IMG/VR virus record: IMGVR_UViG_3300031111_000001
Location: 50,563 to 114,562 of that record
Strand: one strand, 5' to 3'
Length of the DNA: 64,000 nt
Source of the DNA: a virus
The notes beneath the pieces were generated by a model, which searched no databases, was not told the origin of the DNA, and saw nothing but the letters and a program-made list of their open reading frames with translations. The position numbers and the translations under genes were made by a program. Every line of letters begins with the position of its first letter. Position 1 is the stretch's first letter. Below, in pieces: positions 1-20,578 of the stretch.

Positions 1-544
1 CGGAAGCGATCAGGCCACTGCTGCTGCGGTCAAAGGACGCGCACTTGGAAGCGTTCAGGCCCAGCTTCGCGCCCTCGGCCTTCCCGTCGATCCCGGCAGC
101 GAGGAAGATGAAGTCCCAATTGTACTTCTCCTTCTGGTGCCGGACCATCTCGTTGATGATGGTCGCGCCGTACTCGCGAGACTGATTCTCATGGCCGTCC
201 GTGAGGACCACGAACAGGACGCGGGCGGGCCGCTCGTCTTCGGGCAAAGCGTTCAGTTCGTTGCCCACCCTGGTGATCGTGATGCCAACGGCGTCCAGCA
301 GGGCGGTCATGCCACGGGGCTGGTACGTCTCGCCCAGGATCAGGTCGGGGCAGTCCTTGATGGGCTTACGGGTGTAGATCACCTCCACCACATCATCGAA
401 CTGCGTGAGGGACAGTTCGGCCTCGTCGGGGCCGGTGCGCTGTTCGTCGAGGAAACGGTTGAACATCCCCACGGCCTCCGGGGCAATGCTGCCCATGGAG
501 CCAGAACGGTCCAGAATCACGTTGATCAGAGTCATGTCTTTCAT
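1..544 (-). CDS. vWA domain protein (3' end runs off the window)
   Basis: Manual translation from ATG 544: MKDMTLINVILDRSGSMG...PRGMTALLDAVG...FVVLTDGHENQSREY; MIDAS DxSxS, T and D motifs; not in the ORF track because truncated. Confidence 0.85.
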   Translation of the reverse strand, partial: MKDMTLINVILDRSGSMGSIAPEAVGMFNRFLDEQRTGPDEAELSLTQFDDVVEVIYTRKPIKDCPDLILGETYQPRGMTALLDAVGITITRVGNELNALPEDERPARVLFVVLTDGHENQSREYGATIINEMVRHQKEKYNWDFIFLAAGIDGKAEGAKLGLNASKCASFDRSSSGLIAS

Positions 545-546
545 GG

Positions 547-1938
547 TCAATTGTCCATCCAGTTGTACTTGTTATTCATGATGGCCTTGAGCATGACGTT
601 GGTGGGCGTCAGGCTTTCCAGACCCGCTTCCATGATCGCCTTCATCACCGCCGGGGAGTACCCGCTGACGAGGGCAGCACCAGACTGATGCTGGCGCACG
701 GGACAGTTGCCGGGCCGGGCGTTCAGGTTCCAAAACACGACGTTCGGAAGCTCGTAGCCGTACCGGGTAAACTCGGCAGTAGCGTTGGTGAAAAGGTGGT
801 TGCTGCCCGTGACACAGGAATCGAACTCCATGTCGGAGAAGATGATCAGCGTCCTGGGCATGTCCTCGGCGGGCACCTTATTCCCGACGGCCACCTTGAG
901 GATTTCTCCCATGGCCTTCTCGATGTTGGTGTTCATGCCCCAATGGGCACGCTCCAGATTCGCCTTTTTGGCAATGATGTCTCGACCATGCAGGGTGTGG
1001 AACTGCGGATTCTTAGAAAAGGTCAAGACCAAGTCCTTGAAGGCCCCGGTCTGCCGGGTGGCGATGAACAACCCCATGGCAACAGAAACGTCGAGGGCAG
1101 AGAGATTGGGAGAAATCTGCGCCCACATGGACCCGGAGACATCAACCATCGGCAGCACGCCGTTCAGGTTGGCCGGGAACGGAATGGCATCCCACTGCGC
1201 CTGGACGGCCTTCCGCTGCGTGCCCTTCAGCACGTCGTGGGGGAAGATTGCACTGGCGTTGATCTTGGCCTCGCCCTTCTCCAGAGCGTTCAGGTACGCA
1301 CCGTAGCGGTCACCGCAGTTGCGGGTGAACGCCTTCTGGTAACGGGCCGACGCGACGGACGGAACGTGGTTGAACTCGATCTTGTCCCACTCCCCGGCGC
1401 ACATCTTCTGCTCGACGGTGTTGGACAGGCCCACCAGCAGCTTGCGATACTGCTTGGGGGCCAGACCCATGAACTCGCGCAGGGCCACGGCATTGTCGCC
1501 CTTGCGGGGCATCCATTTGGCACACAGGCCGTCACCGGCTTCCAGTGCCTCGGCGATGAAGGGGAAGATGTCGTGTTCGCGCAGTTCGTCGTCCCCGAAG
1601 TGCAGGAGGTCATCCCAACGGCCCACGACGGGCACCAGCGGGATCAGTTTTTCGACCACTTCGGGCCGCTCATGGCAGAGCGTGTCCATCAGGTTGCGGA
1701 AGGTCTGGCGCTCACCGGCACCACCACGGCAGTCTCGCGCCCAGAGCAGGGTGCGGATGGCCTTGTCCTCGTCCGCGACAAAAGCGTCCCAAAAGGGATC
1801 GGAAACGTCCTTGCCACGGCTGGCCCCGATCATGAAGAACAGATCGACAAGCGGGTTCAGGGTGGTGGAGAACGCCTCCATTCCGTTGGCAGTGTGGGAG
1901 TCACGGATGTTGTTGACGCCATTGACAAACTGGTTCAT
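547..1938 (-). CDS. DUF2828 family protein (TROVE/Ro60-like helical domain + C-terminal vWA)
   Basis: Motifs RDCRGGAGER, GRWDDL, AKWMPR, YRKLL, VEQKMCA-W-I-F-VPSVA, VDVSGSM, FSDMEFD, VFWNL, SGYSP are typical of DUF2828; RBS AAGGA upstream. Confidence 0.85.
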   Translation of the reverse strand: MNQFVNGVNNIRDSHTANGMEAFSTTLNPLVDLFFMIGASRGKDVSDPFWDAFVADEDKAIRTLLWARDCRGGAGERQTFRNLMDTLCHERPEVVEKLIPLVPVVGRWDDLLHFGDDELREHDIFPFIAEALEAGDGLCAKWMPRKGDNAVALREFMGLAPKQYRKLLVGLSNTVEQKMCAGEWDKIEFNHVPSVASARYQKAFTRNCGDRYGAYLNALEKGEAKINASAIFPHDVLKGTQRKAVQAQWDAIPFPANLNGVLPMVDVSGSMWAQISPNLSALDVSVAMGLFIATRQTGAFKDLVLTFSKNPQFHTLHGRDIIAKKANLERAHWGMNTNIEKAMGEILKVAVGNKVPAEDMPRTLIIFSDMEFDSCVTGSNHLFTNATAEFTRYGYELPNVVFWNLNARPGNCPVRQHQSGAALVSGYSPAVMKAIMEAGLESLTPTNVMLKAIMNNKYNWMDN

Positions 1939-1983
1939 CTTGTTTTCCTTTTCAATGGAGGTTGTAATTGCTGAAATGAACCA
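1931..1983 (-). promoter_or_regulatory. DUF2828 mRNA leader hairpin carrying the UUCAGCAA motif and pairing with the start codon
   Basis: Minus strand TGGTTCAT-TTCAGCAA...AAGGAAAACAAG-ATGAACCA-G; 1983-1976 is complementary to 1938-1931, which includes the ATG. Confidence 0.75.
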
Positions 1984-2000
1984 TAGACAGTGGACAATAC

Positions 2001-2143
2001 AGAGTGGTGGGTTTGCATACGCGCTCTACCAGACTAAGCTACATCCCCCTGGCCCGAAGGCTTTAGTGTCGGGAGACGACAGGATTTGAACCTGCGACCT
2101 CGTCCTTCATATGGATTGCGGTTTTAGTTGCTGAAACCACTCT
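2001..2143 (-). ncRNA. Y-RNA-like unit A with circularly permuted tRNA-like domain
   Basis: AGAGTGGT-TTCAGCAA...T arm GCAGG-TTCAAAT-CCTGT; closed acceptor CGTCTCCC/GGGGGATG; D arm TA-GCTT-AGTCTGGTA-GAGC...ACCACTCT-G. Confidence 0.8.
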
Positions 2144-2152
2144 AAAAGAAGC

Positions 2153-2211
2153 GGGATGGATAACTTGAATGAATCCATTTCATTTTGTTGTTTGATTGCT
2201 GAAACCATCCC
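2153..2211 (-). ncRNA. short Y-RNA-like unit B
   Basis: GGGATGGT-TTCAGCAA...CCATCCC-G; 7-bp terminal stem. Confidence 0.7.
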
Positions 2212-2219
2212 AAACAATA

Positions 2220-2399
2220 CGGAGTGGGTTCTGTAATGCCCCTAGTGTATGGGGCCTCACCAGTGGCATCGGATGTGCCTTACAGTACGGCAAGCGAACT
2301 GGTGCCGGATTCCCACCGGATGCTCAGATTGCATTATGGATTTCAGTTCTCAAGAGACGTTGTTCCCGTGTTTTCTTGTAGAAGACTGAACCCACTCCG
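2220..2399 (-). ncRNA. Y-RNA-like unit C with divergent permuted tRNA-like domain
   Basis: 12-bp terminal stem CGGAGTGGGTTC/GAACCCACTCCG; motif variant TTCAGTC; CCGG-TGGGAAT-CCGG, CACCAGT/ACTGGTG and GCCCC-ATACACTA-GGGGC in T-acceptor-D order. Confidence 0.65.
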
Positions 2400-2407
2400 A
2401 AAGAAAC

Positions 2408-2537
2408 GGAGTACAGTTTTTGCATTACAAAGGTTCTACCAGTTGAACTACCTCCCGGTACTGTGGTTGGTCGGGAGGGGTGGACTTGAACCACCAACCG
2501 TTTGTTCCTATTGCGTTTGGCTTGCTGCATGTACTCC
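2408..2537 (-). ncRNA. Y-RNA-like unit D with circularly permuted tRNA-like domain and internal CCA
   Basis: GGAGTACA-TGCAGCAA...ACAAA-CGGTT-GGTGG-TTCAAGT-CCACC-CCTCCCG-ACCA-loop-CGGGAGG-TA-GTTC-AACTGGTA-GAAC-C-TTTGT...TGTACTCC-G. Confidence 0.85.
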
Positions 2538-2547
2538 AAAAATTTGT

Positions 2548-2621
2548 CGAGAGGTGCCGGAATTGAACCGACGTTGCCGGGTAAGGCCGCCCAGTATCCT
2601 CGCCAACTGGATGAACCTCTC
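2548..2621 (-). tRNA. tRNA-like RNA with aberrant 8-nt anticodon loop (identity unassigned)
   Basis: GAGAGGT-TC-ATCC-AGTTGGCGA-GGAT-A-CTGGG-CGGCCTTA-CCCGG-CAAC-GTCGG-TTCAATT-CCGGC-ACCTCTC-G; full cloverleaf, no encoded CCA. Confidence 0.7.
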
Positions 2622-2626
2622 GATTC

Positions 2627-2702: not shown

Positions 2703-2724
2703 ATAACGATCCCCCAAAAAAAAC

Positions 2725-2788
2725 AGGATGGGCTACTTGTCAGGTGGTTAGACCAGAGTTTTTCGCATTTGTTTGCTGAATCCATCCT
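2725..2788 (-). ncRNA. short Y-RNA-like unit G
   Basis: AGGATGGA-TTCAGCAA...CCATCCT-G. Confidence 0.7.
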
Positions 2789-2796
2789 AGCGATAC

Positions 2797-2852
2797 AGAG
2801 TGCTTACGTTTTTGCTTAACAGGCAATTGTTTTTGGTTGCTGAATGCACTCT
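2797..2852 (-). ncRNA. short Y-RNA-like unit H
   Basis: AGAGTGCA-TTCAGCAA...GCACTCT-G. Confidence 0.7.
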
Positions 2853-2854
2853 TA

Positions 2855-3125
2855 AAGATTCGCGGCCATACATCCAGTGGTTCGCGATACCACTACATCA
2901 TGATGCAGGGAGGGTCCGTTTCCATCACCGTTGTGTCACCGGGGCTCTACGGTGCGAGTGGGTGAACTATTCGCACCGTACCGCAAAAGTGGTGCGGCTT
3001 GCCTACCGCACTTGCCGGGGCTTAAACCGGATCAGGATAATCGGGAGCAGATCGGCCACATGCGCGGGCCATAGCGTTCAGCTTTCAACTTCCTTTTGCT
3101 GCTCAACCGATTTTCGTTTACTCCT
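2855..3125 (-). ncRNA. candidate structured RNA at the 5' end of the RNA operon
   Basis: Bulged stem AATCGG-TT-GAGCAG/CTGCTC-CCGATT (3039-3112); 10-bp hairpin 2948-2980; GTGCGG/CCGCAC hairpin; no convincing ORF. Confidence 0.4.
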
Positions 3126-3134
3126 TTCATCGAG

Positions 3135-3166
3135 TTAGTCGTACCGACGCCCGTGTCTGGATGAAT
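3135..3166 (-). promoter_or_regulatory. phage-specific promoter TCATCC-N17-CGACTAA, copy 1 (upstream of the RNA/DUF2828 operon)
   Basis: 32 bp identical to 6510-6541; same motif at 15062, 20326 and 20547. Confidence 0.75.
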
Positions 3167-3455: not shown

Positions 3456-4703
3456 CTACTTGCCCACGGTGGGGTCCAGGGCGAGTTTCTTCGCCATGTC
3501 CACCTGAATCATGTTCAGGATGCCCATGATCTCGCTGTCGGAGCCGGTGCCACCGTTGGCACCACCGGACACGATCACGGTGTCGGGCACCTGACGCTTG
3601 GCGATGGCTCCAGCCATGTTCGCATAGACGCGCTCGTAGGTCGCCAGCTTCTTGTCGAGGGCACCGTCAGCGGCGATCCGCATCTTTGCGGCCTGGGCAT
3701 CACCCTCGGCACGCAGAATGGTGGCCTTTTTGTACTCTTCAGCGGCCTGACGATCCAGCTTGGCGACTTCCAGTTCCTGCGCGGCCTTGGTTTCGGCGAC
3801 TTCCTTGGCCTGTTCGGCCTCGGTCACCTTCTGGGCCTTGATGACCTTCTGCGCCCACTCGGCCTTGGCCGCATCGGCAGCACCCTGACGCTCGGTGGTC
3901 AGCTTATCCTGCTCGGCCTTCTTGGCATTGGCGATGGCGGTCTGCACGTCCATGGTGATCTTGCGCTGCTGCTCGATCTGGGCCTGGACCTTGTCGTCGT
4001 ACCGGATGTCGTTCACTGCGAAGTTGTAGAAAGTGATGCCAAACGCGGCGATAGGCGACTCTTCCTGACGCTTCCAGCCGCCGGGGGACTTGGGATCGGC
4101 GATGCGTTCCGTCAGGGTGACGGTCTTCGTCTCGCCGGTCAGTTCGTCCGTGATCTTCGTGTCACGGGTGGTGGTCGCATAGATGCCGAACTTGGCCTGA
4201 TCCTCGATGAAGTTTACCAGTTGGCTGCGCTTCTCGGCGTAGGACTCGCGAGACGACACCAGCGGGCCGGATGCGAAGATCGCCTTGCGCACGACGGTGC
4301 GGATCAGGTTGTCCTCGATACCGGGCATGGAGCGGTACTTTTCGTGCAGCTTCAGCATGTTGACGGGGTCAACGGGCAGATCGTAGCGCACGGAGCCGCT
4401 GACCATGGCCGTACCGGCATCGTTGAAGGTGATCTTCAGGGACTGGTCGGCGGTGCCGCCCTCGTCGGTCTGGGACGAGAACCAAAGCTGGTTCGACTTG
4501 GTGTAGTAGGTCAGGTCACCGAAAAGCTGGGCCTTGGGGCCAGCGGTAACCCATGGCGTCAGTTCGCCCGTGGTGATGGCCTGCTTGACACAGATGTTTC
4601 CGGCAGGGACATTCTCGATCAGGGAGCCGCCCATGGCGACGACCACGACCAGAATGATGCCGAACACAGCGGCCATCACACCCTTCTTGGGGGTGAATTT
4701 CAT
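3456..4703 (-). CDS. SPFH/Band-7 domain membrane protein
   Basis: N-terminal TM helix, Band-7-like core, long Ala/Glu/Lys coiled coil. Confidence 0.8.
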   Translation of the reverse strand: MKFTPKKGVMAAVFGIILVVVVAMGGSLIENVPAGNICVKQAITTGELTPWVTAGPKAQLFGDLTYYTKSNQLWFSSQTDEGGTADQSLKITFNDAGTAMVSGSVRYDLPVDPVNMLKLHEKYRSMPGIEDNLIRTVVRKAIFASGPLVSSRESYAEKRSQLVNFIEDQAKFGIYATTTRDTKITDELTGETKTVTLTERIADPKSPGGWKRQEESPIAAFGITFYNFAVNDIRYDDKVQAQIEQQRKITMDVQTAIANAKKAEQDKLTTERQGAADAAKAEWAQKVIKAQKVTEAEQAKEVAETKAAQELEVAKLDRQAAEEYKKATILRAEGDAQAAKMRIAADGALDKKLATYERVYANMAGAIAKRQVPDTVIVSGGANGGTGSDSEIMGILNMIQVDMAKKLALDPTVGK

Positions 4704-6509: not shown

Positions 6510-6541
6510 TTAGTCGTACCGACGCCCGTGTCTGGATGAAT
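6510..6541 (-). promoter_or_regulatory. phage-specific promoter, copy 2
   Basis: ATTCATCCAGACACGGGCGTCGGTACGACTAA, intergenic, upstream of ATG 6456. Confidence 0.75.
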
Positions 6542-15061: not shown

Positions 15062-15091
15062 TTAGTCGTTTGGTCACCCGTGTCTGGATGA
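15062..15091 (-). promoter_or_regulatory. phage-specific promoter, copy 3
   Basis: TCATCCAGACACGGGTGACCAAACGACTAA immediately after the dnaE stop, upstream of the UvsY-like gene. Confidence 0.7.
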
Positions 15092-20325: not shown

Positions 20326-20357
20326 TTAGTCGGTCTGGGCTACGTGTCTGGATGAAT
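20326..20357 (-). promoter_or_regulatory. phage-specific promoter, copy 4
   Basis: ATTCATCCAGACACGTAGCCCAGACCGACTAA upstream of the helicase. Confidence 0.7.
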
Positions 20358-20546: not shown

Positions 20547-20578
20547 TTTCATCCAGACACGGGACTCGCTTCGTCCAA
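20547..20578 (+). promoter_or_regulatory. phage-specific promoter, copy 5 (divergent)
   Basis: TTTCATCCAGACACGGGACTCGCTTCGTCCAA; same spacing, -10 variant CGTCCAA. Confidence 0.65.

What the first reader, a model, noticed from the sequence alone, without database searches (positions are those of the whole stretch)
1931..1983. The DUF2828 mRNA leader mimics the RNA units and sequesters its own start codon
The seventh copy of the motif is the 5' UTR itself. TGGTTCAT (1983-1976), followed by TTCAGCAA, pairs perfectly with ATGAACCA (1938-1931, start codon plus next five nt), followed by the conserved G, and the SD lies in the loop. Inference: free DUF2828 protein binds this mimic and represses its own translation, matching protein level to RNA level as ribosomal proteins do. 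This is internal evidence that the protein is the ligand of the motif.
Basis: partly seen in the sequence, partly recalled or inferred. Interest (0 to 1): 0.88.

Follow-up and report, generated by a model that had tools for sequence, protein, structure and literature searches.

The report
Partner-RNA handle covering Ro60-like gene's start
In this phage, the messenger for a Ro60-shaped RNA-binding protein begins with a true copy of the short "handle" carried by the small RNAs encoded just upstream, folded so that it pairs with the gene's own start codon; this probably lets the protein limit its own synthesis, but no binding has been shown.

Summary
On the minus strand, 1983-1976 pairs perfectly (8 bp, 10 with a G-U) with 1938-1931, which is the start codon plus five bases. 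An exact UUCAGCAA follows the 5' arm and the Shine-Dalgarno sequence lies in the loop. A covariance model built from 21 short units, without this hairpin, finds it at 39.2 bits (E 5e-8), as good as the model's own window seeds. No other ribosome-binding site in the 114.5-kb phage genome has one.

The protein (DUF2828+DUF7788) models as a full Ro60 ring plus vWA domain. Among 108 non-redundant homologous loci (41-51% identity), 52-59 carry a unit whose 3' arm ends 11-25 nt before the ATG, flush with the SD. Four are stripped-down units directly behind near-consensus promoters.

Pairing with the start codon itself is not conserved. The window is the only clear case of 115. One locus encloses SD and AUG in a unit's loop, and one has a motif-less look-alike.

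Best reading: an autogenous translational operator that mimics the partner RNAs (about 0.45). The main rival is a remnant of the last array unit that acts by structure alone. Binding and repression are untested.

The scan had already noted this RNA family, and leader copies of it, in other genomes.

The parts
1930..1984 (-). Leader unit (seventh copy): closing stem, CAGCAA motif, loop holding the SD, 3' arm holding the start codon, terminal G
   Evidence: R1 hit at 39.2 bits, E 5e-8; this hairpin was not in the seed
1976..1983 (-). 5' arm UGGUUCAU
   Evidence: Sequence; pair probabilities 0.90-1.00
1968..1975 (-). Exact UUCAGCAA motif directly after the 5' arm
1945..1950 (-). Shine-Dalgarno AAGGAA, in the loop, seven bases before the ATG
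   Evidence: Sequence; the MFE structure leaves most of it unpaired and pairs two of its bases in a weak 3-bp inner stem
1931..1938 (-). 3' arm AUGAACCA: start codon 1938-1936 plus codon 2 and the first two bases of codon 3
547..1938 (-). Gene for a 463-aa Ro60-like protein (DUF2828 + DUF7788/vWA)
   Evidence: Pfam; phrog_850; model pLDDT 88.9, and all 12 Foldseek hits listed at E <= 1e-4 are Ro60/TROVE
2000..2144 (-). Unit 6, with a tRNA-like module (weak YrlA match)
   Evidence: Scanner; Rfam YrlA 29 bits, below the threshold of 69
2152..2212 (-). Unit 5, short
   Evidence: 37 bits; seed
2220..2399 (-). Unit 4, 9-bp closing stem, variant motif UUCAGUCU
   Evidence: Read; not found by R1
2407..2538 (-). 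Unit 3, motif UGCAGCAA, tRNA-like module
2724..2789 (-). Unit 2, short
   Evidence: 39.3 bits; seed
2796..2853 (-). Unit 1, short
   Evidence: 48.1 bits; seed
3152..3164 (-). Copy of a five-fold repeated 13-mer, a likely phage promoter element; together with the sigma-70-like site at 3212-3184 these are the only candidate promoter signals found upstream of the array and gene
   Evidence: 5 copies against 0.19 expected; no promoter-like or terminator-like site on the minus strand between 3184 and 1938

Best explanation
The 55-nt leader hairpin (1984-1930, minus strand) is a working copy of the protein-binding 'handle' of the phage's Y-RNA-like units. The handle is an 8-bp closing stem with invariant G:C and U:A pairs, followed by an unpaired CAGCAA. 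Array and gene are probably transcribed together from about 3.2 kb. In the mRNA the handle forms with the start codon in its 3' arm and the SD in its loop. Free Ro60-like protein, once the upstream units are saturated, binds this handle and locks the AUG in the helix, which lowers its own translation. It probably also lowers translation of the vWA gene that starts within a few bases of its stop. Shown: the structure, its family membership, its uniqueness in the genome, the recurrence of a unit at this gene's RBS in other phages, and the Ro60 fold. Inferred: that the protein binds the handle, and that binding represses.
For: (1) R1, built without the hairpin, scores it at 39.2 bits, E 5e-8, equal to seed units 2 and 5. 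It keeps the invariant G3:C and U6:A pairs and the exact motif. (2) In the whole 114.5-kb genome R1 finds only units 1, 2, 5 and this one, so the only RBS with a handle is the protein's own. (3) The closing stem covaries across 92 hits: 93.8% of cells paired, 187 double changes against 56 in shuffles, and at most 46% paired when partners are slid. (4) 186 of 187 R1 hits in 163 homologous loci are on the gene's strand. (5) 59 of 108 non-redundant loci (52 by the strict ...CUG rule) have a unit ending 6-32 nt before the ATG, against 0-5 in shifted and reverse-strand controls. The distance from the unit's last G to the ATG is 11-25 nt, so the SD follows at once. (6) In L043, L041, L030 and L044 a 33-37-nt unit without any module sits 10-16 nt after a 10-11/12 sigma-70 promoter. 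Their module-bearing units lie 0.5-1.5 kb further upstream. These are cis copies in a 5' UTR. (7) In the window, pair 2 of the stem is U:A, where 71 sequences have A:U and 10 have G:C. The 5' arm has changed to match what the coding sequence (Gln codon CAG) imposes. Codon 3 is Gln only here and in L107 among 111 N-termini. (8) L118 encloses SD and AUG in the loop of a unit whose 3' arm is codons 10-13 (27.7 bits). (9) P(AUG paired) is 0.99, the highest of 115 leaders (median 0.44). (10) The protein model is a Ro60 ring plus vWA. Ro60 proteins bind the 5'/3' terminal stems of Y RNAs encoded next to them (PMC4201824, PMC12135203).
Against: There are no binding or expression data. Start-codon pairing is seen clearly in 1 of 115 leaders, so it is not a family trait. 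About 45% of loci have no leader unit; in cyanophage-like loci and in Felixounavirus the units lie after the gene. So autoregulation, if real, is optional. About 60% of leader units carry a T-arm or tRNA-like module and look like ordinary array members. Spacers between units are as short as the unit-to-SD distance, so genome compaction alone could place a unit against the RBS. The leader deviates at two near-invariant positions (pair 2, and CAG in place of CUG), which could weaken or abolish recognition. Part of the R1 score comes from an A-rich loop that here is the SD region. The folding energy is not exceptional.
Confidence: 0.45

Rival explanations
1. Remnant acting by structure alone. The hairpin descends from the last unit of the array. 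In this lineage its 3' arm was replaced by the start of the coding sequence. It now dampens translation constitutively, or stabilises the 5' end of the processed mRNA, and the protein plays no part.
For: In most homologues the gene simply follows the last unit, often a full module-bearing one. The SD context just before the window's ATG matches the spacer that follows the 3' arm in type-a loci, and a 4-bp vestige of an older 3' arm lies just before it (my reading). The start of the CDS happens to resemble the family's 3' arm consensus in 8 of 9 positions; L141's 3' arm differs from it by one base. An 8-10 bp stem of -6.7 to -10.4 kcal/mol can lower initiation by itself.
Against: The motif is exact and the stem is perfect, including a compensating change at pair 2; a decaying relic should not keep both. 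Stripped-down units behind their own promoters in four other phages argue for a function tied to the handle.
Confidence: 0.3
2. Either/or processing switch. The leader unit is cut out like the other units. Each primary transcript then yields either a seventh small RNA, which destroys the mRNA, or an intact mRNA.
For: It scores like the free-standing short units. It lies 11-15 nt after unit 6, the usual spacing in the array.
Against: Cutting after G1930 would remove the start codon. No homologue shows this cost, because their units end before the SD. No end-mapping data could be obtained.
Confidence: 0.1
3. Assembly or activation site. The handle recruits the newly made protein in cis, for co-translational assembly, mRNA protection, or helix opening that frees the AUG. 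Binding would then raise expression or have no effect on it.
For: [quoted passage not shown] The handle sits at the very 5' end of the mRNA in four loci, a good position for protection.
Against: A stem that holds the AUG, or abuts the SD, is the classical repressor geometry. There is no evidence for activation.
Confidence: 0.1
4. Chance complementarity next to a chance motif.
For: Folding energy z-score -0.73.
Against: E 5e-8 from a model that did not contain the hairpin. It lies in register with six units, on the same strand, next to the associated gene.
Confidence: 0.02

Closest known systems
Ro60 (Rsr, TROVE + vWA) with Y RNAs: bacterial and phage YrlA (Rfam RF02553; PMC4201824); Thermus phage phiLo Ro60 with Yrl1/Yrl2 (PMC12135203; PDB 9KOP, 9L5Y)
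   Same: A ring-plus-vWA protein fold. Small RNAs are encoded beside the gene on the same strand. A stem joins the RNA's 5' and 3' ends as the presumed protein site. Modules are variable and often tRNA-like.
   Different: Sequence identity to solved Ro60 proteins is 11-17%, and Pfam gives DUF2828/DUF7788, not TROVE. Units score 29-37 bits against YrlA, whose threshold is 69. The handle is a different stem with an unpaired CAGCAA. I found no report of a Y-like element in a Ro60 mRNA leader, nor of Ro60 autoregulation.
Autogenous translational operators that mimic the protein's main RNA ligand (ribosomal protein leaders, threonyl-tRNA synthetase operator, MS2 coat-protein hairpin over the replicase start, archaeal L7Ae). 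Named from my own knowledge.
   Same: A copy of the ligand's recognition element lies in the protein's own mRNA, over or against the RBS. The expected logic is titration of free protein against free RNA.
   Different: Binding and repression are not shown here. The protein family and the RNA family are new to this kind of control. The element sits before the SD in most relatives and over the AUG only here.
Dictyostelid Class I RNAs (Rfam RF01414; PMC7919456)
   Same: A short stem joins the 5' and 3' ends, a conserved motif containing ACAGCAA lies next to the 5' stem strand, the 3' end reads CUG(U), and the length is about 60 nt. Unit 1 matches the model at 25.2 bits.
   Different: The match is below the family threshold of 41.5. 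The leader hairpin gives no match at E <= 10. The paper reports the class as restricted to Dictyostelia and bound by an RRM protein.
E. coli phage Bas63 gp130 (PhageMaP preprint, PMC11482910)
   Same: It is reported there as Ro60-like by structure and next to tRNA genes, with the suggestion that some of those genes are Y RNAs. Felixounavirus phages carry homologues of the window protein. In phage adrianh I find three units between its tRNA genes.
   Different: No leader unit was found in the Felixounavirus locus. I did not examine the Bas63 record itself. The preprint links gp130 to countering the ppl defence system, not to autoregulation.

Membership tests
   39.2 bits, E 5e-8 in 64 kb; the seeds from the same window score 37-48 bits
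   Both pairs are present; both are invariant in 84 distinct sequences
   Exact UUCAGCAA at 1975-1968. The MFE fold pairs its first two U.
   Pair 2 is U:A, the only such case in 84 sequences, and the end reads CAG. Both deviations are dictated by the coding sequence.
   It overlaps the gene's first eight bases. 186 of 187 hits elsewhere are co-oriented with the gene.
Y RNA / YrlA (Rfam RF02553) | Score at or above the curated threshold (69 bits), with a tRNA-like domain | tested here: not met
   The leader gives no match. Units 3 and 6 score 29 bits.
Y RNA / YrlA (Rfam RF02553) | Bound by a Ro60 protein | not testable with these tools
   Needs pull-down or gel-shift experiments
Autogenous translational operator by mimicry | The element lies in the protein's own mRNA and overlaps the ribosome-binding site | tested here: met
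   AUG in the 3' arm, SD in the loop
Autogenous translational operator by mimicry | The element resembles the protein's primary RNA ligand | tested here: inconclusive
   It resembles the neighbouring units. That those units are the protein's ligand is inferred from co-occurrence and from the Ro60 fold only.
Autogenous translational operator by mimicry | The protein binds the element and represses translation | not testable with these tools
Ro60 / TROVE protein | HEAT-repeat ring plus C-terminal vWA domain | tested here: met
   Model pLDDT 88.9, pTM 0.88. All 12 Foldseek hits listed at E <= 1e-4 are Ro60; TM 0.53-0.65 for most of them, normalised by the query length.
Ro60 / TROVE protein | Sequence-level match to TROVE or to solved Ro60 proteins | tested here: not met
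   Pfam gives DUF2828 + DUF7788 only. phmmer against PDB sequences finds no Ro60.

The most novel reading that the evidence does not exclude
This would be the first autogenous translational operator of any Ro60-family protein. The phage would sense the balance between free Ro60-like protein and its Y-like RNAs through a handle copy in the mRNA, and here the handle has been rebuilt around the start codon itself. It would then offer a minimal 55-nt genetic read-out of the protein's RNA recognition code, for an RNA family that reaches from coliphages and mycobacteriophages to, possibly, the unexplained Class I RNAs of social amoebae.
Probability: 0.4. Interest if true: 0.75.

Novelty: new variant of a known kind. 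Interest (0 to 1): 0.6.

Why it matters
Ro60 and Y RNAs have been studied for decades because of their roles in autoimmunity and RNA quality control. I found no report on how Ro60 levels are matched to Y RNA levels. The phage branch of the family (DUF2828, present in more than 700 phage genomes) has no described RNA partner. A handle copy over the protein's own start codon gives a simple, testable assay for which RNA features the protein recognises. It also suggests feedback control of a phage ribonucleoprotein that one preprint links to counter-defence (PMC11482910). If it fails the test, the element still marks the 3' boundary of an unannotated RNA array.

Tried and rejected
(1) Energy as a criterion. 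The leader's MFE is not unusual (z -0.73), so I relied on family membership instead.

(2) Close relatives, for covariation between the 5' arm and the first codons. blastn of the array against phages found nothing. Protein-guided scans of genomes, IMG/VR and metagenomes gave at most 51% identity. A pattern scan for motif + SD + the first nine coding bases gave four hits in unrelated genes.

(3) A conserved switch in which the leader unit's 5' arm pairs alternatively with codons 9-13. The permutation test gave a mean of 4.18 against 4.04 (p about 0.04), and two stems of 6 bp or more against 0.77 expected (p 0.19). Rejected.

(4) A downstream true start that would make this an ordinary unit placed before the SD. 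Rejected: the N-terminus aligns from residue 1, and no SD or in-frame start follows.

(5) Known RNA families. Rfam has none for the handle.

(6) Sequence search of PDB chains: no Ro60 hit. The fold search was needed.

Full report
OBSERVATION. The gene at 547-1938 (minus strand, 463 aa) starts with ATG at 1938. On the minus strand, 1983-1976 is the exact complement of 1938-1931, which is the start codon plus five bases. UUCAGCAA follows the 5' arm at 1975-1968. AAGGAA at 1950-1945 is the Shine-Dalgarno sequence; it lies in the loop, seven bases before the ATG. G1930 follows the 3' arm. RNAfold extends the helix to 10 bp with one G-U. The eight pairs keep a probability of 0.90-1.00 when 91 to 431 nt of context are folded. 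The overall folding energy is not exceptional (z -0.73), so energy alone does not set the hairpin apart from chance.

SURROUNDINGS. The protein matches Pfam DUF2828 and DUF7788 and PHROG 850, 'RNA-binding protein'. An AlphaFold model built on 40 homologues (pLDDT 88.9, pTM 0.88) finds only Ro60/TROVE structures among its best Foldseek hits. These include Thermus phage phiLo Ro60, Deinococcus Rsr and Xenopus Ro60, with TM up to 0.65 over the full length, helical ring plus vWA domain. Sequence methods do not see this relationship.

Upstream on the same strand I read six units. Each has a closing stem of 7-9 bp, then (U/A)UCAGCAA or a close variant, then a variable body. Two units carry tRNA-like modules that match Rfam YrlA weakly, at 29 bits against a threshold of 69. 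A tRNA-His gene and a tRNA-like element lie inside the array. No promoter-like or terminator-like site separates the array from the gene on the minus strand. A 13-mer that occurs five times in the window (0.19 expected) has one copy at 3164-3152. Array and gene are therefore probably one transcript. The window lies in a complete 114.5-kb virus record with terminal repeats.

IS THE LEADER A MEMBER OF THE FAMILY? I built covariance model R1 from 21 short units: 18 from other phages and units 1, 2 and 5 of this window. The leader hairpin was left out. R1 finds the leader at 39.2 bits, E 5e-8, level with seed units 2 and 5. The best hit outside the array scores 13.5 bits. In the whole phage genome only these four elements are found, so no other ribosome-binding site carries one.

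On 92 hits from many loci, the 8-bp stem is paired in 93.8% of cells. It shows 187 double changes against 56 in shuffles, and at most 46% pairing when the partners are slid. That alignment is fitted to the model, which favours pairing. Pairs 3 (G:C) and 6 (U:A) never vary, and the leader has both. Pair 2 is A:U in 71 sequences, G:C in 10 and U:A in one, the leader. There the 3' base is fixed by the Gln codon CAG, and the 5' arm has the matching U. Gln at codon 3 occurs only here and in L107 among 111 distinct N-termini. Part of the score comes from the A-rich loop of the model, which here is the SD region.

HOMOLOGOUS LOCI. The 163 loci that I fetched are informative in another way. R1 gives 187 hits (108 at E <= 1 in the first set, 79 at E <= 0.1 in the second), and 186 of them are on the gene's strand, just before or just after the gene.

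Among 108 non-redundant loci with enough upstream sequence, 59 have a unit whose 3' arm ends 6-32 nt before the ATG; 52 do under a stricter rule that requires the ...CUG end. Shifted and reverse-strand controls give 0-5. The distance from the last G of the unit to the ATG is 11-25 nt, mostly 12-16, so the SD begins immediately after the stem. About 40% of these leader units are module-less (31-60 nt). The rest carry T-arm or tRNA-like modules.

In L043, L041, L030 and L044, a 33-37-nt unit begins 10-16 nt after the -10 box of a 10-11/12 sigma-70 promoter. Their module-bearing units lie 0.5-1.5 kb further upstream. In those phages the 5' UTR is essentially the handle followed by the SD.

Units also occur in cultivated phages. 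They lie in the leader of Stenotrophomonas phage DLP_6, between the tRNA genes after the gene in coliphage adrianh (Felixounavirus), and after the gene in Mycobacterium phage DuncansLeg.

IS START-CODON PAIRING CONSERVED? No. Over 115 distinct leaders, the probability that the AUG is paired is highest in the window (0.99; median 0.44). The other high values come from small local hairpins with the coding region.

Two loci are related cases. In L118, a homing-endonuclease-like ORF has been inserted between the array and the gene. A unit there (27.7 bits) has its 5' arm and CAGCAA in the end of that ORF, the SD and AUG in its loop, and its 3' arm in codons 10-13. L107 starts with the same twelve coding bases as the window. 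There a unit-like 5' arm pairs with the start codon and the SD is in the loop (z -2.48), but CAGCAA is absent and R1 does not find the element.

A general alternative pairing of leader 5' arms with the coding region is not supported. The nearest relatives have ordinary units before the SD. The 3' arm of L141 differs by one base from the window's first nine coding bases. The start of this gene family resembles the 3' arm consensus, which would make recruiting the start as a 3' arm easy.

MECHANISM. The best-supported reading is a translational operator. The handle forms in the mRNA, the AUG is held in a helix of -6.7 to -10.4 kcal/mol, and free Ro60-like protein binds it and strengthens the block. 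Synthesis would then fall once the upstream units are saturated. A vWA gene starts within a few bases of the stop and may be coupled to it.

Shown: the structure, its membership in the family, its uniqueness in the genome, the recurrence of a unit at this gene's RBS, promoter-proximal stripped-down copies elsewhere, and the Ro60 fold. Inferred: that the protein binds the handle, and that binding represses. I put this reading at about 0.45.

The main rival (0.3) is a remnant of the last array unit that acts by structure alone. In favour of it, most leader units look like ordinary array members, and compaction could explain their closeness to the SD. Against it stand the exact motif, the perfect stem and the compensating change at pair 2. 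The lesser rivals are an either/or processing switch, an assembly or activating site, and chance.

COMPARISON WITH WHAT IS KNOWN. Ro60 proteins with adjacent Y RNAs are known in bacteria and phages (PMC4201824; PMC12135203), and jumbo phages are noted to carry TROVE proteins (PMC7824862). A preprint calls Bas63 gp130 Ro60-like and guesses that neighbouring 'tRNAs' are Y RNAs (PMC11482910). Rfam 15 has no family for the handle. The five papers that mention DUF2828 are unrelated to this subject, and I found no report of Ro60 autoregulation. The handle resembles dictyostelid Class I RNAs in layout and motif (PMC7919456). Only unit 1 matches that model, below threshold; the leader does not match. 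Autogenous control by mimicry is a classical principle. The new points are the protein family, the RNA family and, in this phage, the handle built over the start codon.

EARLIER NOTES OF THIS SCAN. The scan had already recorded this RNA family in at least 36 other genomes. It had also recorded handle copies in the leaders of DUF2828 genes in other phages, with the same tentative reading.

VERDICT. This is a new variant of a known kind of control. It is interesting mainly as a compact, testable entry point to an undescribed phage ribonucleoprotein.

Noticed in passing
window 2548-2622 (-): A cloverleaf-like element between tRNA-His and unit 3. ARAGORN does not call it, and Rfam sees it only as a weak tRNA-Sec match of 19.8 bits. 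Its anticodon loop looks one base too long.
   Followed up: no
window 2-550 (-): A second vWA-domain gene (phrog_7371) starts within a few bases of the stop of the Ro60-like gene, so the two are probably translationally coupled.
   Followed up: no
window 3456-4703 (-); L170 203-1135: An SPFH/Band-7 gene lies upstream of the RNA array. Mycobacterium phage DuncansLeg also has a band-7-like gene, then a tRNA, then the Ro-like gene. This may be conserved neighbourhood.
   Followed up: no
window 3152-3164, 6527-6539, 15079-15091, 20343-20355 (-) and 20549-20561 (+): An exact 13-mer occurs five times against 0.19 expected. It is probably part of a phage-specific promoter.
   Followed up: partly
window 2865-3135 (-): About 270 nt of G+C-rich sequence lie between the putative promoter and unit 1, with another CAGCAA near 3100. 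This could be a further structured RNA or a small ORF.
   Followed up: no
L169 4216-4284, 4383-4442, 4838-4907: Escherichia phage adrianh (Felixounavirus) has three unannotated handle units between annotated tRNA genes, downstream of its DUF2828 gene.
   Followed up: partly
L118 828-1500: A homing-endonuclease-like ORF is inserted between the RNA array and the DUF2828 gene. Its last codons supply the 5' arm and the motif of the unit that encloses the RBS.
   Followed up: partly
window 2796-2851 (-): Unit 1 matches the Rfam model of Dictyostelium Class I RNA at 25.2 bits (threshold 41.5). The layout is the same: a terminal stem, ACAGCAA next to the 5' strand, and a CUG end (PMC7919456).
   Followed up: partly
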